A stretch of DNA of 43,714 nucleotides from Escherichia phage NTNC80A. This document shows, one piece after another, positions 7,165-21,928 of this stretch (the stretch's first letter is position 1; each line of letters begins with the position of its first letter). The notes beneath the pieces are model-generated. The model saw only the letters and a list, made by a program, of their open reading frames with translations. It was not told the origin of the DNA and made no database searches. The stretch lies in sequence record OP018999.1; one strand, given 5' to 3'. A program made the position numbers and the translations under genes.

Positions 7165-7293
7165 ATGCGTAACTTTGAAAAGATGACCCGTAAAGCTAAC
7201 CGTTTCGACATGGAAGAAGGGCAGAAGAAAGGCAAGAAGCTGAATAAACCTGTCCGTGACCGTGCATCTAAACGCGCTGCGTGGGAGTTCTAA
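7165..7293 (+). CDS. small basic protein (42 aa), T7 gp1.1-like
   Basis: MRNFEKMTRKANRFDMEEGQKKGKKLNKPVRDRASKRAAWEF; same length and N-terminus (MRNFEKM) as T7 gp1.1 as recalled; SD GGAGA 7 nt upstream. Confidence 0.6.
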   Translation: MRNFEKMTRKANRFDMEEGQKKGKKLNKPVRDRASKRAAWEF

Positions 7294-7296
7294 GTT

Positions 7297-9285
7297 ATGG
7301 CTATTATTCAGAATGTACCGTGTCCTGCTTGCCAAAAGAACGGACATGATATTACTGGCAATCATTTAATGATCTTTGACGATGGGGCAGGATACTGTAA
7401 CCGTGGTCACTTCCATGATAACGGTAAACCTTATTACCACAAGCCGGAAGGTGGCATCGAGATAACCGAGTTACCTATTACTGGCAATATCAAATATACA
7501 CCTTCTCAATTCAAAGAAATGGAGAAGGAAGGGAAGATAAGCGACCCTAAGTTGCGCGCCATCGCACTTGGTGGTATGCGTATGAAAGACCGTTGGGAGG
7601 TTATGAATGAGCAAGAAAGGGCAGACCAAGAAGCCGAGTGGAAACTCGATGTTGAATGGTTCCTCACGCTTAAGCGTAAGAACCTTGTATCCCGTCACAT
7701 TCGAGGCGACATCGCTGCAATGTATGATGTGCGCGTCGGACATGATGAAGAAGGCCGAGTCAACCGTCACTACTATCCTAGATACGAAAAGGGTGTGCTC
7801 GTGGGAGCAAAGTGCCGGACGCTGCCGAAGGATTTTAAGTTCGGTCACTTAGGTAAACTCTTTGGTATGCAAGACCTTTTCGGGATGAACACTTTGTCTC
7901 ACGTGTTAGACAAGGGAAGACGAAAGGATTGCTTGCTTATTGTAGGTGGTGAACTGGATGCACTAGCAGCGCAGCAGATGCTCCTTGATTCTGCCAAGGG
8001 TACTAAGTGGGAAGGTCAGCCATACCACGTGTGGTCTGTCAACAAAGGTGAATCTTGCCTTGAAGAGATAGTGCAAAACCGTGAACACATCGCCCAATTC
8101 AAGAAGATTATCTGGGGCTTCGATGGTGATGAGGTAGGACAGAAGCAGAACCAGCAAGCGGCTCGCCTGTTTCCCGGCAAATCCTATATCCTTGAGTACC
8201 CTTCTGGTTGCAAAGATGCCAACAAGGCATTGATGGCTGGCAAGGCTAAAGAATTTGTGGATGCTTGGTTTAATGCAAAGTCATCTGATGAAGTCTTTGG
8301 TAGCCAGATTAAATCTATCGCATCTCAAAGGGATAAGCTCAAGGCTGCACGTCCAGAACAAGGGCTGTCATGGCCTTGGCCTAAGCTAAACAAGGTAACG
8401 CTAGGTATTCGTAAGAACCAACTTATCATTGTAGGCGCAGGCTCTGGTGTAGGTAAGACTGAGTTCCTTCGTGAAGTAGTTAAGCACCTCATTGAAGAAC
8501 ACGGTGAATCTGTAGGCATCATTTCTACAGAAGACCCGATGGTCAAGGTGTCCCGTGCTTTTATCGGTAAGTGGATTGATAAGCGTATTGAGTTACCGCC
8601 AACCAACGACCCGAAAGAAGATGGATACCGTGAGGTGTTCGACTACACCGAGGAAGAAGCTAACGCCGCCATTGATTATGTAGCTGATACAGGTAAGCTG
8701 TTTGTAGCTGACCTAGAGGGTGACTATTCGATGGAAAAGGTAGAGCAAACTTGCCTAGAGTTTGAGGCTATGGGCATTTCTAATATCATCATTGATAACT
8801 TAACGGGGATTAAATTAGATGAGCGTGCTTTTGGTGGGAAGGTTGGTGCACTTGATGAATGCGTCAAGCGGATTGGTACTATCAAAGACCGACACCCGGT
8901 TACTATATTCCTTGTATCACACCTTACACGTCCTCCGGCAAACCGTACCCAACACGAAGAAGGTGGCGAGGTTATCCTTTCTGACTTCCGAGGCTCAGGC
9001 GCTATCGGATTCTGGGCATCTTACGCCTTGGGGATTGAGCGTAACACAAGAGCTGAAACGCTTGACGAAAGGACTACCACGTACATCTCATGTGTCAAAG
9101 ACCGCGACCAAGGTATCTACACTGGAACCAAGGTCATGCTTAAGGGTGACATTCAAACCGGACGTTTAATGGAACCACAAGCCCGTACTAAGTCATTTGA
9201 TACAGGTGAAGCAAGGCAACAAGAAGTGCCGGATTTACCGGACACTATAGAAGAGACAACCTTTGACGATGAACAGGAGTTTTAA
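7297..9285 (+). CDS. DNA primase/helicase (T7 gp4-like)
   Basis: N-terminal zinc ribbon CPACQKNG...CNRGH, Walker A GAGSGVGKT, acidic C-terminus ending DDEQEF. Confidence 0.95.
   Translation: MAIIQNVPCPACQKNGHDITGNHLMIFDDGAGYCNRGHFHDNGKPYYHKPEGGIEITELPITGNIKYTPSQFKEMEKEGKISDPKLRAIALGGMRMKDRWEVMNEQERADQEAEWKLDVEWFLTLKRKNLVSRHIRGDIAAMYDVRVGHDEEGRVNRHYYPRYEKGVLVGAKCRTLPKDFKFGHLGKLFGMQDLFGMNTLSHVLDKGRRKDCLLIVGGELDALAAQQMLLDSAKGTKWEGQPYHVWSVNKGESCLEEIVQNREHIAQFKKIIWGFDGDEVGQKQNQQAARLFPGKSYILEYPSGCKDANKALMAGKAKEFVDAWFNAKSSDEVFGSQIKSIASQRDKLKAARPEQGLSWPWPKLNKVTLGIRKNQLIIVGAGSGVGKTEFLREVVKHLIEEHGESVGIISTEDPMVKVSRAFIGKWIDKRIELPPTNDPKEDGYREVFDYTEEEANAAIDYVADTGKLFVADLEGDYSMEKVEQTCLEFEAMGISNIIIDNLTGIKLDERAFGGKVGALDECVKRIGTIKDRHPVTIFLVSHLTRPPANRTQHEEGGEVILSDFRGSGAIGFWASYALGIERNTRAETLDERTTTYISCVKDRDQGIYTGTKVMLKGDIQTGRLMEPQARTKSFDTGEARQQEVPDLPDTIEETTFDDEQEF
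9233..9255 (+). promoter_or_regulatory. phage RNAP promoter embedded in the 3' end of the helicase gene
   Basis: atttaccggacactatagaagag; +1 G at 9250; simultaneously encodes DLPDTIEE. Confidence 0.6.
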
Positions 9286-13565: not shown

Positions 13566-13994
13566 ATGGCTAATCGTAAAGAGATGGAGATTGTTAAGTT
13601 AGATAATGGCTGTCTCGTGCAGACTAGCCATAAGCTCAATCCTGATGGTTACTTTCGTAAGCGTATATGGCATGAAGGTCGCTTGCAGCACATGATGTAC
13701 CATCGTTACATGTGGATTCAAAAGCATGGTGAGATACCAAAAGGGTATGAAGTTGACCACAAATGTAAGAATCGTGCATGTTTCAATGTTGACCATTTAC
13801 AATTACTTAAGTCGTCTGAGCATAGAACTAAAGACAATACAGGCCGTCATGGTGATAAGAAGCAAGCTGCATATTTAATTTGGAAGCAGCATTGCGGAGC
13901 TATTACAGGAGCTGCCCTAGCTGAATTGGTTGGTGTATCATTCAGTGCTACGTGTAAGTGGATTAGAGGCTGGAGGACTAATGAGCACCAGTGA
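13566..13994 (+). CDS. HNH homing endonuclease
   Basis: VDHKCKNRACFNVDHLQL HNH motif; free-standing gene right after the polymerase; SD AGGAGA. Confidence 0.85.
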   Translation: MANRKEMEIVKLDNGCLVQTSHKLNPDGYFRKRIWHEGRLQHMMYHRYMWIQKHGEIPKGYEVDHKCKNRACFNVDHLQLLKSSEHRTKDNTGRHGDKKQAAYLIWKQHCGAITGAALAELVGVSFSATCKWIRGWRTNEHQ

Positions 13995-14636: not shown

Positions 14637-14870
14637 ATGATGGAAGAAGTAATTCAAGCTAGCAGTGTTCTTTTGTCTTTTAATGATGTGCCACCAGAGC
14701 ACCCAACTAGTGTAGTCTTGTTTGTTGAAGGTCAAAACTGCCAACAATTAAGTCTGTCACTTCGTGATACTCGCGTTAGTGTACATATGCAAGGTACCCA
14801 CGAGGGTGAATGTGTAAGCTACATTTACCCTCGAGACGCTATTGCACGCATTAAAGTAGTTCATAAATAA
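14637..14870 (+). CDS. hypothetical protein (77 aa)
   Basis: ORF track; starts 7 nt after the previous stop. Confidence 0.5.
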   Translation: MMEEVIQASSVLLSFNDVPPEHPTSVVLFVEGQNCQQLSLSLRDTRVSVHMQGTHEGECVSYIYPRDAIARIKVVHK

Positions 14871-14891
14871 TTAGGTGACACTATAGAACAA
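14869..14891 (+). promoter_or_regulatory. phage RNAP promoter (SP6-type)
   Basis: aattaggtgacactatagaaca; +1 G at 14886; followed by a ~150-nt leader containing hairpin atgtgca-tgt-tgcacat. Confidence 0.7.
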
Positions 14892-15037
14892 TAGGTCGAT
14901 TTAGTTCGGCCTATGATTGTAAAGTGTTGAACCGCCTATTGTGCATGTTGCACATCCCCATTCTCTAACTGGGGCTTTCTAGTGAGTACATGCGTGTGCT
15001 CAGTACAAAGCTAACAAACAACAGGAGGAATAAATTA

Positions 15038-15844
15038 ATGGCACGTAACTTTGACTTCGGCGCAGAAATTACTCAATCCACTGGTGGTGTATTTAAGAAC
15101 CCTGAAGTGGGCGACCATGAGGCAGTTATCTCTGGCATCATTCACGTTGGTTCCTTCCAAGACATCTTCAAGAAAGGTAACACCACCGAGGTGAAGAAGC
15201 CTGCTAACTTCGTTCTTGTTAAGGTAATCCTGATGGGTGACGATGACAAGAACGAGGATGGCTCTCGTATGGAACAGTGGATGGCTGTGCCGCTCAAGTC
15301 TGGTGACAAGGCAACGCTGACCAAGTTCCTGAATGCAGTTGACCCGAAAGAATTGCTTGGTGGCTTCGATGACTTCATCGGCGAGTGCATGACTGTTAGC
15401 ATGGTTGGTGATGATAAGGGTGGCAAGAACGAAGATGGCACTTTCAAGTATGTTAACTGGAAAGGCTTCGGCGGTATGCCTGATAAACTCAAGAAGCTGG
15501 TTCTGGCTCAGGTGGAAGAAGAAGGCTTAACCATGACAGGCCACATCACCTTCGACAAGCTGACCCGCGAAATCATCGACAGCATCCCTGCACATCTCGT
15601 TCGTCAGTACCTGCTGAACGAAACACCACGCGGTAAGAACCTGTCCGTTGCTGGCTCTCATGTTGAAGCCATCATCGCTGAGGCTCGCGCTGCCGATGCT
15701 GAGTGGAAGAAGGCCAAGAAGAAAGACAATGACGCAACTCCAGAAGACCGTAAGCCTCTGGACACAGGTGCCTCTGTCCCGCAGGAAGTACCGGAAGCCC
15801 CTAACGTAGCGGCACCGGAGATGGACGAAGACTCGGAATATTGA
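15038..15844 (+). CDS. hypothetical protein (268 aa) with acidic C-terminal tail; possible ssDNA-binding/replisome protein
   Basis: ATG 15038 with SD AGGAGGAA (ORF track 14990); own promoter; C-terminus PEMDEDSEY; N-terminus MARNFDFGAEIT. The SSB assignment is a guess from position and tail. Confidence 0.7.
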   Translation: MARNFDFGAEITQSTGGVFKNPEVGDHEAVISGIIHVGSFQDIFKKGNTTEVKKPANFVLVKVILMGDDDKNEDGSRMEQWMAVPLKSGDKATLTKFLNAVDPKELLGGFDDFIGECMTVSMVGDDKGGKNEDGTFKYVNWKGFGGMPDKLKKLVLAQVEEEGLTMTGHITFDKLTREIIDSIPAHLVRQYLLNETPRGKNLSVAGSHVEAIIAEARAADAEWKKAKKKDNDATPEDRKPLDTGASVPQEVPEAPNVAAPEMDEDSEY

Positions 15845-15851
15845 ATAAACC

Positions 15852-16298
15852 ATGACTTCCGATCAGATAAAAGAGAAGATACAGAATAATATTGTTGTAT
15901 CTGAAACTGGATGCTGGTTGTGGCAGAAGTCTATAGCTACTAATGGATATGGTAACATCTGCGTAGGTAAAGGAAGAAACAGAGCAGTTCACAGGGTTGC
16001 TTGTGAACTGTATCACGGAGTTCCACCTACGCGTATGGATGCCGTTCATTCTTGTGACAATAAGGCTTGTTGCAATCCAGAACACCTGTCTTGGGGAACA
16101 AGGAGTCGTAATGAAATAGAGGCTGTGAGAAGGCTAGGTAAGTCACATAAACTTAAACTACATGAAGCAGCATACATTAAGTTCTCCGGTTTACCTACTA
16201 AAGAATTAGTAGGTATGTTCTCTGTGAGTAAAGATTTAATTAACAGAATTAAGCGTGGTGTCTTATGGGCACACGTAACCAAGGGGGATTTAAGATGA
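15852..16298 (+). CDS. HNH homing endonuclease
   Basis: HSCDNKACCNPEHLSWGT HNH motif plus C-terminal helix-turn-helix-like region. Confidence 0.85.
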   Translation: MTSDQIKEKIQNNIVVSETGCWLWQKSIATNGYGNICVGKGRNRAVHRVACELYHGVPPTRMDAVHSCDNKACCNPEHLSWGTRSRNEIEAVRRLGKSHKLKLHEAAYIKFSGLPTKELVGMFSVSKDLINRIKRGVLWAHVTKGDLR

Positions 16299-16513
16299 AA
16301 GTACAAATTGTAACCCTGCACTGTAAGAAAGGCATTACAACCCTAGGCGGCACAACTTTTCACTCCTTCTCTGAAGGGGAGACATACGCCGACCTGCACT
16401 ACATCTGGCGCGATGGGCAGCACGTGGTGAACTACAGCGACCCCGCTACGGGGAAACGCCACGGCGTGTCGCTTCCGGCGCACGACATCGCTCAGGTGAA
16501 CACAGTTTTATAA
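16295..16513 (+). CDS. hypothetical protein (72 aa)
   Basis: ATG 16295 overlapping the HNH stop (ATGA); SD AAGGGGGA; MKVQIVTLHCKKG... Confidence 0.5.
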   Translation: MKVQIVTLHCKKGITTLGGTTFHSFSEGETYADLHYIWRDGQHVVNYSDPATGKRHGVSLPAHDIAQVNTVL

Positions 16514-16617: not shown

Positions 16618-16983
16618 ATGTTCAAGATTGAAACTATCGTAAACCGTGTTGTTAAAGGTGCTGATCTGGTATCCGTTGAGTCTTTCGTTATCGTCGATGA
16701 AGCCAACAAACTGGTAGCTGGCACTAAGGCTTACGATACCCGTGAAGAGGCTCAGGCTAAGATTGACAGCATGGGTAACTTCGCTGCTGGTCTGGAGTTC
16801 GCTCGTGCTTGCTTCCCTGAGCAGGCTGACAAAGCTCAGATTGGCAAGGCTAACATCGTAGCTGAGTATCTGGATTGGATTGCCGCTGGTAAACCGGTGA
16901 AAGAAGCTAAGGCTGAAGAAGCTGAGGCTCCGGTAGAAGTAGCTGCACCGGAAGCTCCGGTAAGCGAAGAAGAAGAGTTTTGA
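16618..16983 (+). CDS. small acidic protein (121 aa) ending SEEEEF, hypothetical
   Basis: Consensus promoter, strong SD (AAAGGAGA) and downstream terminator suggest high expression; C-terminal acidic tail with terminal Phe. Confidence 0.75.
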   Translation: MFKIETIVNRVVKGADLVSVESFVIVDEANKLVAGTKAYDTREEAQAKIDSMGNFAAGLEFARACFPEQADKAQIGKANIVAEYLDWIAAGKPVKEAKAEEAEAPVEVAAPEAPVSEEEEF

Positions 16984-17076: not shown

Positions 17077-17297
17077 GTAATAGTTATTGGAGAATGAATT
17101 ATGCCGACTATTGAAGAACGTTTGAAACTAGAGTACCACTACTTTTATGCACCTTTAAGAAAGACAGAAGTCACTGTCGTAAAAGTTAAGCTGGATGGTG
17201 ACCTCTTTCTTCAAAAGGTTAAAGAGACAAGAAGCCAGAACGAATCTCGTACTTTTGCATATGAGGTACTCTATTCTGTATTGAAGGAGTGGCCTAC

Positions 17298-18326
17298 ATG
17301 CGACCAAACTTCGACTTCGGAGCCACAGTATCGGAAGACAATAATCTCATCCTGTGGCCAACTGAAGGTAATCGAATCGCTTTAATAGATGCTGATATGT
17401 TACCCTACATCGTAGGTTATACAATCAGTGACATGACTTATGTACGAGCCACAACTCGTGTTAAGTCAGGACAAGTCCCATCAATCAAAGATACACCTGA
17501 GTGTAAGCAAGCGTGTGACCGTGTGAACTCCTTGCTTAACTCTTGGGTGTATGCAGCAGAGTGTGATGCAGCTAAGTTATTCATGACGAAATCAGAAGCT
17601 AACTTTCGTGTACGCCTAGCCTTCACCAAACCTTATAAGGGTCAACGTAAGACCGAGAAGCCCCCCTTCTTCTATGAATTGAGAGAGCATCTCTTAGAGG
17701 TTCATGGTGCAATCTTGGCAGATGGTGAGGAAGCTGATGACCTCATGAGCATTGCACAATGGGACAGCCACCGCCGCTTCCAGCAAGATACAGGTAACGA
17801 GTTCCCTATCGGTAGTCCAGAGCATAAAGCATTCTCTGATACTTGCATTGTTTCCTTGGATAAGGACTTGATGATTGTTCCCGGTTGGCATCTTCAGCCG
17901 GGTCAAGAGAAGAAATGGGTAGAGCCTATGGGTTGGCTTGAGTTACGCCGTAAGGCTAATGGTCAGGTCAAAGACCTAAAAGGTGCTGGCCTCATGTTCC
18001 ATTATGCACAGATGATTATCGGTGATGATATTGATAACTATGCTGGCATACCTGGACGTGGTGCTAAATATGCCTATGATCTTCTCAAGAGTTGTAAGAC
18101 AGAGAAAGAGTTGTACATGGCAGTGCTTGGTGCTTACAAGGCTAAGTTCGGACATGGACAAGTTAAGATTAAGAATTACCGAGGGGGTTATCGTATCGGC
18201 AAAGCCTTTGACTTGATGCTTGAATGTGGTCGCCTAGCTCACATGGCAAGGTTCAAAGGTGATATATGGCGAGCCGATAAGAATGAAATCTTATGGGGAG
18301 ATGATGGCGATGAGTGGATGCATTGA
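17298..18326 (+). CDS. 5'-3' exonuclease (T7 gp6-like)
   Basis: ATG 17298 with SD AAGGAG 8 nt upstream (ORF track GTG 17289); RIALIDADMLPYIVGY aligns with the T7 exonuclease N-terminal metal-binding region as recalled. Confidence 0.9.
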   Translation: MRPNFDFGATVSEDNNLILWPTEGNRIALIDADMLPYIVGYTISDMTYVRATTRVKSGQVPSIKDTPECKQACDRVNSLLNSWVYAAECDAAKLFMTKSEANFRVRLAFTKPYKGQRKTEKPPFFYELREHLLEVHGAILADGEEADDLMSIAQWDSHRRFQQDTGNEFPIGSPEHKAFSDTCIVSLDKDLMIVPGWHLQPGQEKKWVEPMGWLELRRKANGQVKDLKGAGLMFHYAQMIIGDDIDNYAGIPGRGAKYAYDLLKSCKTEKELYMAVLGAYKAKFGHGQVKIKNYRGGYRIGKAFDLMLECGRLAHMARFKGDIWRADKNEILWGDDGDEWMH

Positions 18327-18747
18327 CCACGGTTGTAAAGGTTTTGGCATAGGTTATGCCACGGCATATTACAAGGGTCGTGACGGTAAGAAGAAGTTCA
18401 CCACGAAACACCGAGTAGTTTACTGCAAGGTTAATGGTATTCATCCAGAAGATTTACCTAAAGACCTAGTAATACGCCATACCTGTGACAATGCACGTTG
18501 CATAAATCCAAATCACCTTGAGATAGGAACCCACGCCGACAACATGCGAGACATGGCAGAGCGAGGGCGCGCCTACAAGGGCGGTATGCCCGGTGAGAAG
18601 AATGGGAGATGTGTCCTCTCCGATGAGCAAGTCTTGGAAATCAAGAGGCTACGTGCCGAAGGTTATACCCTCAAACGCATAGCTGACTTGTATTCTGTAG
18701 GCACATCTCAAATCTCCCGTATTACCAGAGGAGAACAACGTGCGTAA
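18301..18747 (+). CDS. HNH homing endonuclease
   Basis: HTCDNARCINPNHLEIGT HNH motif and C-terminal HTH-like region; start overlaps the exonuclease 3' end. Confidence 0.85.
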   Translation: MMAMSGCIDHGCKGFGIGYATAYYKGRDGKKKFTTKHRVVYCKVNGIHPEDLPKDLVIRHTCDNARCINPNHLEIGTHADNMRDMAERGRAYKGGMPGEKNGRCVLSDEQVLEIKRLRAEGYTLKRIADLYSVGTSQISRITRGEQRA

Positions 18748-21730: not shown

Positions 21731-21928
21731 ATGTCTTTTGATTCCATGAAGGCAACTCGTGCCGTTGAGGTGGCAGAGGCTATCTTCGAAACTTTATCCT
21801 GTGGCATGGAAGTGCCATATACTTTACTGGCTGATGCAGAAGAACTTGGTCTTTCTGTAGAAGCTATCCAAGAGAAGGTGGAAGAACTCTATGGTACAGA
21901 TGAAGAAGAAACCGACGATTTCATTTGA
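21731..21928 (+). CDS. small acidic protein (65 aa), hypothetical
   Basis: ORF track; SD AAGGAGGG upstream; ends EEETDDFI. Confidence 0.5.
   Translation: MSFDSMKATRAVEVAEAIFETLSCGMEVPYTLLADAEELGLSVEAIQEKVEELYGTDEEETDDFI

What the first reader, a model, noticed from the sequence alone, without database searches (positions are those of the whole stretch)
15038..15844. Putative SSB-like protein shares its N-terminal peptide (NFDFGA) with the exonuclease
This protein begins MARNFDFGAEIT and the exonuclease at 17298 begins MRPNFDFGATVS; the gp1.1-like protein begins MRNFEKM. The rest of the two proteins looks unrelated. The shared peptide could be a common docking or processing signal, or a trace of recombination between gene starts. 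The protein also ends in an acidic tail (DEDSEY) and has a long structured leader.
Basis: seen in the sequence. Interest (0 to 1): 0.45.

Follow-up and report, generated by a model that had tools for sequence, protein, structure and literature searches.

The report
SSB and exonuclease share docking peptide
In this SP6/K1E-like phage, the likely single-stranded-DNA-binding protein and the 5'-3' exonuclease both begin with the same short flexible peptide, and the two copies have stayed matched through deep divergence, which points to a shared docking signal in the phage replication machinery that I found no description of.

Summary
NFDFGA occupies residues 4-9 of both the K1E-gp16-like protein (15038-15844) and the FEN-type exonuclease (17298-18326), and no other window ORF has it at its start. 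A shared 6-mer near the N-termini of 55 window proteins arises by chance in 0.5% of shuffles.

It is functional. F-[DNE]-[FYM]-G starts both proteins in every related locus that holds both genes, down to 29% identity. Flanking residues co-vary within genomes: the residue after Gly matches in 29 of 34 unique pairs. In one divergent clade both proteins replaced the motif with [YF]-A-x-x-L. Synonymous codons are not unusually shared, so selection acts on the peptide.

Best reading, inferred: a docking peptide for one shared acceptor site, most likely the SSB core, with the exonuclease copying the SSB's own cooperativity tail. The acceptor is untested. The gp1.1-like similarity is chance, and the leader is only partly conserved.

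The parts
14869..14889 (+). SP6-type phage promoter driving the gp16-like gene (AATTAGGTGACACTATAGAAC). The transcription start at about 14886 is placed by analogy with the SP6 consensus.
   Evidence: 9 matches to the SP6 promoter consensus in the window, 0 expected by chance. Sequence read.
14886..15037 (+). 5' leader of about 152 nt. A hairpin at 14891-14914 is shared with relatives. The central ~85 nt is present only in the window, K1E and an SP6-length relative.
   Evidence: MFE -46.3, z -2.3; alignment of leaders; no Rfam family.
15038..15844 (+). Gene for the K1E-gp16-like protein (268 aa, PHROG 862, no Pfam match). Predicted OB-fold SSB-like protein.
15038..15088 (+). Low-confidence N-terminal tail of gp16 (residues 1-17, pLDDT below 50) carrying the shared motif.
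15047..15064 (+). NFDFGA, residues 4-9 of gp16. F5 and G8 are invariant and D6 nearly invariant in 35 homologues.
15110..15697 (+). Folded core of gp16 (residues ~25-220): an OB-like beta barrel plus helices. The family motifs IHVG (residues 35-38) and PLKxGDKA (85-92) both change in the clade where the N-peptide changes.
15722..15799 (+). Low-confidence (pLDDT below 50), Lys/Asp/Pro-rich linker (residues 229-254).
15818..15841 (+). Acidic C-terminal tip EMDEDSEY (residues 261-268). The final E-[YF] is conserved across the family.
17298..18326 (+). Gene for the FEN-family 5'-3' exonuclease (K1E gp20 homologue, 342 aa).
17307..17324 (+). NFDFGA, residues 4-9 of the exonuclease, in a low-confidence N-terminal tail (residues 1-10 mean pLDDT 55). 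F5 and G8 are invariant in 50 homologues.
17355..17369 (+). W-P-T-E-G (residues 20-24) just before strand beta1 of the nuclease. W20 and G24 are invariant. hhalign aligns it with N-P-E-V-G of gp16.
16618..16983 (+). Context: the gp18-like gene between the two, 121 aa, function unknown, with an acidic tail ending SEEEEF. It is conserved in every clade examined.
7297..9285 (+). Context: primase/helicase with an acidic C-terminus ending FDDEQEF. It parallels the T7 gp4 tail and is a candidate alternative partner.

Best explanation
The peptide F-D-[FY]-G-(A) is a short linear docking motif. It sits on a flexible N-terminal tail of two otherwise unrelated replication and recombination proteins: the phage's OB-fold SSB-like protein (gp16, PHROG 862) and its FEN-type 5'-3' exonuclease. 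Both tails bind the same acceptor site, so they are held similar to each other as that site evolves.

The most likely acceptor is the OB core of gp16 itself. In the SSB, the tail would dock onto the neighbouring SSB molecule on ssDNA and give cooperative coating, as shown for the N-tail of PrgE and the B-domain of T4 gp32. The exonuclease would carry a copy of that tail and use it to sit on an SSB molecule whose acceptor site is free. That would place the nuclease at one end of an SSB-coated gap for primer or flap removal or 5' resection. The acidic C-terminal tips ending in Tyr/Phe (gp16, primase/helicase, gp18) would be a separate, T7-like handle for the polymerase.

Shown here: the motif, its conservation, its restriction to two proteins, low-confidence tails, co-variation, protein-level selection, and the OB and FEN folds. 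Inferred: that the motif is a binding peptide, that the acceptor is shared, that the acceptor is the SSB core, and that gp16 binds ssDNA.
For: 1. Conservation. F5 and G8 are invariant in 35 gp16 homologues and in 50 exonuclease homologues. Of the 120 best exonuclease hits, 109 match a loose version of the motif; the other 11 are truncated or near-variant (FHFG, FSFG, FKYG). Both proteins carry the motif in all 49 related loci that hold both genes (L002-L051 with the K1E locus L001), down to 29% gp16 identity.

2. Specificity. A six-frame scan of the window plus 51 loci for the motif next to a start codon finds only these two gene families. The single extra hit is internal to a ribonucleotide reductase.

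3. Co-variation. Within-genome identity over 10 variable positions is 3.29 against 2.31 for permuted pairs (P < 1e-4). The residue after Gly matches in 29 of 34 unique pairs (15.6 expected): A/A, G/G, V/V, E/E. A clade-level test gives P = 0.0016.

4. Motif replacement in both proteins in one clade. MSKYASKLA (gp16-like, L060) and MSKYANKLA (exonuclease, L059) come from the same sample, on contigs that break within the same gp18-like gene. L061 has YNFAGDLEE and SYASLLEE; L062 has NYAEQLEE and SFASMLSD.

5. Protein-level selection. Codon identity at identical residues is 44% within genomes and 40% between genomes.

6. Flexible context. gp16 residues 1-17 have pLDDT below 50. Exonuclease residues 1-10 have mean pLDDT 55, and no secondary structure is predicted before residue 27. 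The motif's distance from Met1 varies from 1 to 17 residues.

7. Phyletic pattern. Exonucleases of phages with other SSB types lack the motif. phiIBB-PAA2 starts at beta1 and has a gp2.5-like SSB; T7 gp6 and phiKMV ORF22 also lack it.

9. Precedents. The PrgE N-tail binds the neighbouring PrgE, and its deletion abolishes oligomerisation and cooperativity (PMC11137577). The T4 gp32 N-terminal B-domain gives cooperativity. T4 RNase H (FEN family) binds the gp32 core with higher affinity once the B-domain is removed, and its own N-terminal peptide is a docking motif for the clamp (PMC3012046).

10. Lead for the acceptor. The two most conserved core motifs of FDxG-type gp16, H[LIV]G and PLKxGDKA, both change (to FLD and PFKWHDLA) exactly in the clade where the peptide changes.
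Against: No binding data and no complex model could be produced here, so the acceptor is unidentified.

The correlation between peptide type and core motifs rests on about three clade-level events and is confounded by phylogeny.

The PrgE tail interaction is polar and the gp32 B-domain is basic, so neither resembles F-D-F-G chemically.

The profile alignment extends past the peptide into P-x-x-G and beta1. The shared element may therefore be a larger N-terminal module with a structural role.

The first 27 nt in L060/L059 are 24/27 identical, so occasional gene conversion may contribute to the matching.

The L059/L060 pairing is inferred from the same sample and abutting contigs, not from one contig.

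Confidence: 0.42

Rival explanations
1. The motif is a docking peptide, but the shared acceptor is a third protein rather than the SSB core. Candidates are the DNA polymerase, the primase/helicase, the conserved small protein gp18, endonuclease VII, or a host factor. Both proteins would be brought to the replisome through their N-tails, much as T7 gp2.5 and gp4 share a C-terminal tail that binds gp5.
For: All evidence for a co-evolving shared peptide applies equally. The T7 precedent of one tail motif shared by two proteins for one partner is established knowledge. Polymerase, primase/helicase and gp18 are conserved in the same module in every clade examined.
Against: Three proteins already carry a T7-like acidic C-tip ending in an aromatic residue that would serve polymerase docking. 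gp18's conserved helix stays about 80% identical in the clade where the peptide changed completely, which argues against gp18 as the acceptor. N-terminal short hydrophobic motifs followed by a Gly-rich linker are widespread in PHROG 862 relatives, which suggests the tail is an SSB-intrinsic feature. A host factor is less likely because the motif spans phages of enterobacteria, Vibrio and Pseudomonas and phages from marine samples.
Confidence: 0.3
2. The shared segment has an intrinsic role in cis in each protein. It could be an aromatic clip that contacts ssDNA or the 5' flap, or a cap packing onto each protein's first beta-strand. It would be similar in the two proteins because of similar chemistry or an ancient transfer of a ~30-residue N-terminal module.
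For: hhalign aligns 32 columns, including P-x-x-G and beta1. The spacing from the motif to P-x-x-G is similar in the two proteins. N-termini of FEN-family enzymes are reported to become ordered on substrate binding (from memory, not checked). Exonuclease residues 11-20 have intermediate confidence (pLDDT 76).
Against: Independent cis roles on unrelated folds do not predict same-residue co-variation within genomes, nor a joint switch to a different motif. The conserved Asp and Gly are not typical of DNA-contacting aromatic clips. The motif residues themselves have low pLDDT.
Confidence: 0.13
3. The similarity is maintained by recurrent short-tract gene conversion or recombination between the two gene starts, perhaps helped by the homing endonucleases nearby, with no shared function.
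For: L060/L059 share 24 of 27 nt at the gene start. HNH endonuclease ORFs flank both genes in the window. The region is mosaic between SP6-like and K1E-like relatives.
Against: There is no excess of shared synonymous codons overall (44% versus 40%), and the window's own 18 nt differ at 3 synonymous sites. In L061/L062 the peptides are similar but the DNA is different. F and G are invariant across very deep divergence in both families, which needs purifying selection. The upstream and downstream DNA is unrelated.
Confidence: 0.04
4. The conserved element acts at the RNA level, as a shared translation-initiation or regulatory sequence at the two gene starts, or the match is chance.
For: Both motifs lie directly after the start codon. 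The gp16 gene has a structured leader.
Against: The amino acids are conserved while the codons vary freely (TTT/TTC, GAT/GAC, GGA/GGT/GGC). The motif's distance from the ATG varies between relatives. The chance probability is 0.5% in the window alone and becomes negligible given conservation in about 50 loci.
Confidence: 0.02

Closest known systems
T4 gp32 N-terminal B-domain and the gp32-RNase H interaction
   Same: The SSB has a short, disordered N-terminal peptide that docks on the core of the neighbouring SSB to give cooperativity. A FEN-family 5'-3' exonuclease is recruited to the SSB core and binds better when the SSB's own N-peptide is absent. The exonuclease also uses its own N-terminal peptide as a docking motif (PMC3012046).
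   Different: The gp32 B-domain is basic (the LAST motif), not F-D-F-G. T4 RNase H contacts gp32 through its C-terminal domain, and its N-peptide binds the clamp. SP6-like phages have no annotated clamp gene (K1E annotation). In T4 the SSB and nuclease peptides are not similar to each other. gp16 is not a gp32 homologue.
PrgE of plasmid pCF10 (PDB 8S4S)
   Different: Sequence identity is 16% over 103 aligned residues. PrgE is half the size and has no acidic tip ending in an aromatic residue. Its tail contacts are polar. No partner enzyme is known to share its tail.
T7 gp2.5 and gp4 acidic C-terminal tails
   Same: In T7 (from memory), one short terminal motif is shared by two different replication proteins for the same partner. 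gp16, the primase/helicase and gp18 of the window end in acidic tails with a terminal Tyr or Phe, as T7 gp2.5 and gp4 do.
DUF669 / N4-SSB-like predicted SSBs (Kazlauskas et al. 2016, PMC4889955)
   Same: These are phage proteins of diverged OB fold with acidic C-tails, found in genomes that lack a known SSB. BFVD models annotated DUF669 match the gp16 model (Foldseek E about 5e-5 to 1.5e-4).
   Different: No member of the gp16 alignment, and none of 10 remote PHROG 862 relatives, matches the Pfam DUF669 model. hhalign against N4 SSB gives E 0.13. The link is by fold only, and no shared N-terminal motif was described for that group in the passages I read.
Bacterial SSB C-terminal tip (DDDIPF) interaction hub
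   Same: A short terminal peptide on a disordered tail recruits genome-maintenance enzymes, nucleases among them (from memory). Remote PHROG 862 relatives end in DDDIPF-like tips.
   Different: In that system the peptide is on the SSB and the pocket is on the partner. Here the same peptide is on both the SSB and the nuclease, at the N-terminus.

Membership tests
OB-fold single-stranded-DNA-binding proteins (functional class) | OB-fold core | tested here: met
OB-fold single-stranded-DNA-binding proteins (functional class) | Disordered linker plus acidic C-terminal tip | tested here: met
   Residues 229-254 have pLDDT below 50. The tip EMDEDSEY ends in E-[YF] in all 35 homologues.
OB-fold single-stranded-DNA-binding proteins (functional class) | Binds ssDNA preferentially and is needed for replication | not testable with these tools
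   This needs EMSA or fluorescence titrations and phage genetics.
OB-fold single-stranded-DNA-binding proteins (functional class) | It is the SSB of a genome that lacks another one | tested here: inconclusive
   The K1E annotation has no SSB. PHROG scans of the other sizeable unknown window ORFs gave no SSB family. Several ORFs remain uncharacterised.
T7 gp2.5 family (Gp2.5-like SSB / annealing protein) | Sequence or profile similarity to gp2.5 | tested here: not met
   hhalign of A1 against T7 gp2.5 gives E 0.67. There is no Pfam hit at E up to 10.
T7 gp2.5 family (Gp2.5-like SSB / annealing protein) | Acidic C-terminal tail ending in an aromatic residue | tested here: met
   This feature is analogous and does not by itself show homology.
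Pfam DUF669 / N4 SSB group | Match to the DUF669 HMM or to N4 SSB | tested here: not met
   None of the 35 members matched, and none of 10 remote relatives matched. hhalign against N4 SSB gives E 0.13. The only similarity is by fold, to BFVD entries labelled DUF669.
PHROG 862 (unknown function) | Match to the PHROG 862 profile | tested here: met
   E 3e-61 for the window protein. Remote relatives with DDDIPF-like tips also match (E 1e-15 to 6e-49).
FEN / 5'-3' exonuclease family (the exonuclease at 17298) | 5'-nuclease (PIN-like) fold plus H3TH region, and conserved acidic active-site residues | tested here: met
   The model has pLDDT 94. Foldseek matches ExoIX, T5 FEN and T4 RNase H at E 1e-7 to 1e-5. 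D31, D33, D147, D148, D188, D190, D243 and D246 are invariant. PHROG 107 matches at 9e-73. Pfam PF01367 scores below its cut-off (24 bits against 40).
T4 gp32 B-domain (LAST motif) cooperativity peptide | Basic (K/R)3(S/T)2 N-terminal motif | tested here: not met
   The peptide is M-A-R-N-F-D-F-G-A-E, hydrophobic and acidic. Only its position and low model confidence are analogous.
Clamp-binding (PIP-like) N-terminal peptide of T4 RNase H | A Q-x-x-[ILM]-x-x-[FY][FY]-type motif and a clamp encoded by the genome | tested here: not met
   No such pattern occurs in the first 25 residues. No clamp gene is annotated in K1E.
Short linear docking motif (SLiM) shared by two proteins | Short conserved core in a disordered region, tolerant of its position, flanked by variable sequence | tested here: met
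   Low pLDDT. Invariant F and G amid variable flanks. The distance from Met1 varies from 1 to 17 residues.
Short linear docking motif (SLiM) shared by two proteins | Demonstrated binding to a defined partner surface | not testable with these tools
   No complex prediction or binding assay was available.

The most novel reading that the evidence does not exclude
The exonuclease carries a molecular copy of the SSB's own N-terminal cooperativity tail. It uses that copy to occupy the one free acceptor site at the end of an SSB filament, which gives end-specific (polar) recruitment of a flap/5' exonuclease to SSB-coated DNA. The peptide and its acceptor would form a lineage-specific 'code' (F-D-[FY]-G in the SP6-like and Colwellvirinae lineages, [YF]-A-x-x-L in a marine clade, possibly R-[LI]-A-x-x-A in GAP227-like phages). 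That code would co-evolve and could act as a compatibility barrier when replication modules are exchanged between phages.
Probability: 0.3. Interest if true: 0.75.

Novelty: new variant of a known kind. Interest (0 to 1): 0.6.

Why it matters
SP6/K1E-like phages are used for their RNA polymerase and studied for phage therapy, yet they have no annotated SSB. This analysis gives a testable assignment for gp16 and, by extension, for the large family PHROG 862, which is listed as 'unknown function'.

Recruitment to SSBs is normally described as the SSB's C-terminal tip binding pockets on partner enzymes. Here the SSB and a nuclease carry the same N-terminal peptide, and the two copies co-evolve. 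If the nuclease copies the SSB's self-association tail, that would be a simple way to place an enzyme at a defined end of an SSB filament. It would also offer a natural peptide/acceptor pair for engineering recruitment, and a possible compatibility determinant in mosaic phage genomes.

The hypothesis can be tested directly with two synthetic peptides, one truncated protein and a few point mutants.

Tried and rejected
- **Chance:** rejected. The shuffle test gives 0.5% in the window, and the motif is conserved in about 50 loci.
- **A third protein with the motif:** none found. The scan covered the window and 51 loci in six frames. The only extra hit (L034) is internal to a ribonucleotide reductase.
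- **Recent gene conversion:** the codon test is negative overall. One lineage shows 24/27 nt identity, so occasional conversion is not excluded.
- **RNA-level signal:** rejected because synonymous sites vary. Rfam finds nothing in the leader.
- **Homology to T7 gp2.5, N4 SSB, Pfam DUF669 or PDB sequences:** all negative.
- **Locating the [YF]-A-x-x-L clade in other collections:** no hits in IMG/VR or JGI metagenomes. It was reached through the third protein search and contig look-ups.
- **Extending the principle to other PHROG 862 phages:** RIO-1 shows nothing convincing. Atu_ph02 (ALAAQA / GLAAHA) and the GAP227 clade ([ED]RLAARA / [EG]R[IMV]A[KT][VA]) show weak, Ala-rich resemblances that I could not test statistically. 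A search with LN-type relatives failed.
- **Literature:** searches for the gp16 family or the motif in SP6/K1E/Molineuxvirinae papers found nothing.
- **gp18 against PDB sequences:** nothing found.
- **Complex prediction:** not possible.
Full report
**What the window is.** The window is a complete or nearly complete SP6/K1E-like podophage genome (Autographiviridae, Molineuxvirinae). It carries nine SP6-type promoters where none is expected by chance. Its closest annotated relatives are K1E and K1-5, at about 87% DNA identity in this region. The gene at 15038-15844 corresponds to K1E gene 16, annotated 'hypothetical protein'. The gene at 17298-18326 corresponds to K1E gene 20, annotated 'exonuclease'.

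**The observation.** Both proteins carry NFDFGA at residues 4-9: MARNFDFGAEIT and MRPNFDFGATVS. Both starts have good Shine-Dalgarno sequences and agree with the K1E annotation. A six-frame search finds NFDFGA nowhere else in the window. A composition-preserving shuffle of 55 window proteins produces a shared 6-mer in the first 15 residues in only 0.5% of trials. The gp1.1-like ORF at 7165 (MRNFEKM) shares only R-N-F and is not part of the feature.

**Conservation.** In an alignment of 35 gp16 homologues reaching 35% identity, F5 and G8 are invariant and D6 nearly so. In 50 exonuclease homologues, F5, G8, W20 and G24 are invariant. Of the 120 best exonuclease hits, 109 match a loose version of the motif, and the other 11 are truncated or near-variant forms such as FHFG and FSFG. 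In the 49 related loci that hold both genes (IMG/VR loci L002-L051 plus the K1E locus L001), both proteins start with F-[DNE]-[FYM]-G, down to 29% gp16 identity. BUCT553 (Colwellvirinae) and Erwinia phage Tapenade do the same. A six-frame scan of all these sequences for the motif next to a start codon returns only these two gene families. The one extra hit is an internal ribonucleotide reductase motif.

**Co-variation.**
- The two peptides of one genome resemble each other more than peptides from different genomes: 3.29 against 2.31 identities over 10 variable positions (P < 1e-4, 34 unique pairs).
- The residue after Gly matches in 29 of 34 pairs where 15.6 are expected. Four different matched states occur (A/A, G/G, V/V, E/E), and a clade-level test gives P = 0.0016.
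- The strongest case is a divergent clade that was reached only through the protein databases. There both proteins have replaced F-D-F-G with [YF]-A-x-x-L.
  - L060/L059: MSKYASKLA in the gp16-like protein and MSKYANKLA in the exonuclease. These lie on two contigs from the same sample that break within the same gp18-like gene.
  - L061: YNFAGDLEE and SYASLLEE.
  - L062: NYAEQLEE and SFASMLSD.
  - In L061 and L062 the exonuclease carries a second tandem copy of the motif.
- Synonymous codons are shared no more within genomes (44%) than between genomes (40%). The matching is therefore kept by selection on the peptide, not by ongoing gene conversion or an RNA signal. One lineage (L060/L059, 24 of 27 nt identical) may have had a local conversion.

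**Structural context.**
- AlphaFold2 gives gp16 a low-confidence tail (residues 1-17, pLDDT below 50) and a confident core (about residues 25-220). A low-confidence linker (229-254) and a low-confidence acidic tip follow.
- The exonuclease model is very confident (pLDDT 94) except for residues 1-10 (mean 55), and it has no secondary structure before residue 27.
- Profile-profile comparison of the two families finds only the N-terminal 32 columns (E 6.9e-5, probability 63%). That alignment runs from the motif through a P-x-x-G turn into the first strand.
- The distance of the motif from Met1 varies from 1 to 17 residues among relatives. This argues against an N-terminal processing or N-degron signal.

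**What gp16 is.**
- It has no Pfam match, and it belongs to PHROG 862, 'unknown function'.
- It shows no sequence link to T7 gp2.5 (E 0.67), N4 SSB (E 0.13), Pfam DUF669 or any PDB sequence.
- By fold it matches many uncharacterised podophage proteins, and more weakly entries labelled DUF669 or SSB. Kazlauskas et al. proposed that group to be diverged OB-fold SSBs with acidic tails (PMC4889955).
- An exhaustive profile search finds 175 relatives. The remote ones are also PHROG 862 and often end in DDDIPF-like tips that resemble the bacterial SSB tip.
- In the window, the primase/helicase (...FDDEQEF), gp16 (...DEDSEY) and gp18 (...SEEEEF) all end in acidic tails with a terminal aromatic residue. 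This parallels T7 gp4 and gp2.5.
- K1E has no annotated SSB.
- Together these results make gp16 the probable SSB. ssDNA binding is untested.

**Phyletic pattern.** Exonuclease relatives at 38% identity or more align from residue 1. Those at about 31% identity or less align only from about residue 27. phiIBB-PAA2, which has a gp2.5-like SSB, has an exonuclease that starts directly at beta1. T7 gp6 and phiKMV ORF22 lack the motif. Among PHROG 862 representatives, F-D-x-G goes with the core motif H[LIV]G and a tip ending E[FY]. [YF]-A-x-x-L goes with FLD. Relatives without either mostly have D[LV]G and tips of the P[FYW] type. In the [YF]-A-x-x-L clade the other signature motif, PLKxGDKA, is also altered. 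These are clade-level correlations, so I treat them only as a lead to the acceptor site.

**Mechanism.** The data fit a short linear docking motif on flexible N-tails that targets both proteins to one acceptor site. I favour the SSB core as the acceptor, for three reasons.
- Short N-terminal hydrophobic motifs followed by a Gly-rich linker are common across PHROG 862, whereas the exonuclease's motif is clade-specific. This suggests the nuclease acquired the SSB's tail.
- PrgE, the best structural match, uses its N-tail to bind the neighbouring protomer and loses cooperativity without it (PMC11137577).
- In T4, the gp32 N-terminal peptide mediates cooperativity. The FEN-type RNase H binds the gp32 core more tightly when that peptide is removed, and it uses its own N-peptide as a docking motif (PMC3012046).

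A third-protein acceptor (polymerase, helicase or other) explains the co-variation equally well and remains a serious rival. A purely cis role, gene conversion alone, an RNA signal and chance are each disfavoured by specific results given above.

**Leader.** The gene lies 152 nt downstream of a phage promoter. The leader folds moderately better than shuffled sequence (z -2.3). Only its 5' hairpin is shared with relatives, and about 85 nt is absent in several. No Rfam family matches. It looks like an ordinary, variable phage 5' UTR.

**Novelty.** I found no paper describing the gp16 family's function or the shared motif. Peptide-mediated recruitment to SSBs is well known. An N-terminal peptide common to the SSB and a nuclease that co-evolves in both is, as far as these searches show, a new variant of that theme.

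Noticed in passing
window 13566-13994, 15852-16298, 18283-18747: Three HNH homing-endonuclease-like ORFs sit directly after the DNA polymerase, after gp16 and after the exonuclease (PHROG HNH families, E down to 1e-30). K1E has no insert between genes 16 and 17, which are 9 nt apart there.
   Followed up: partly
window 15038-15844 versus 17298-18326: The region is mosaic. gp16 is 97% identical to L002, 92% to a 43,769-bp contig (the length I recall for SP6) and 84% to K1E. The exonuclease is 98% identical to K1E and only 84% to that SP6-length contig. A recombination breakpoint therefore lies between the two genes, near the HNH insert.
   Followed up: no
window 7297-9285, 15038-15844, 16618-16983 (C-termini): Three replication-module proteins end in acidic tails with a terminal aromatic residue (FDDEQEF, DEDSEY, SEEEEF). 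This resembles the T7 gp4 and gp2.5 tails that bind the polymerase. The small ORF at 21731-21928 ends EEETDDFI.
   Followed up: partly
window 16618-16983 (gp18-like); L061 2830-3186; L053 3926-4279: The function of gp18 is unknown (PHROG 4429, no PDB or Pfam match). Its segment ADKAQIGKANIVAEYLDWIAAGKPVKEA stays about 80% identical in clades where gp16 has diverged to roughly 30% identity. The gene always lies between gp16 and the exonuclease.
   Followed up: partly
window 17101-17385 versus 17298-18326: The gp19-like ORF (PHROG 10319, labelled 'DNA repair protein') overlaps the first 29 codons of the exonuclease in another frame, including the NFDFGA codons. Distant clades keep the motif but have no such ORF.
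   Followed up: partly
window 14637-14870 and 16295-16513: The two small ORFs flanking gp16 both match PHROG 8057 (E 6e-15 and 3e-4), so they may be diverged paralogues.
   Followed up: no
P0206, P0231, P0241, P0243, P0273 and others: Remote PHROG 862 relatives end in DDDIPF, DDEIPF or DDEVPF. These are near-copies of the bacterial SSB C-terminal tip and suggest those phage proteins engage host SSB-binding partners. Many of them begin M-[SAG]-L-N-x-N followed by a Gly-rich linker.
   Followed up: partly
L061 3250-4443 and L062 2116-3312: In the [YF]-A-x-x-L clade the exonuclease carries two tandem copies of the motif: MDFASMLDTDEPQSYASLLEE and MDYSSMLDTDVPSFASMLSD.
   Followed up: no
L068-L072 (GAP227 clade), L067 (Atu_ph02): There are weak, Ala-rich N-terminal resemblances between the PHROG 862 protein and the adjacent exonuclease: [ED]RLAARA versus [EG]R[IMV]A[KT][VA], and ALAAQA versus GLAAHA. 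This may be the same principle with another motif, or it may be chance. I did not test it statistically.
   Followed up: partly
window 18283-18326 (exonuclease C-terminus): The exonuclease ends in WGDDGDEWMH, and W324 and W340 are invariant in 50 homologues. This may be a second, C-terminal acidic/aromatic handle.
   Followed up: no
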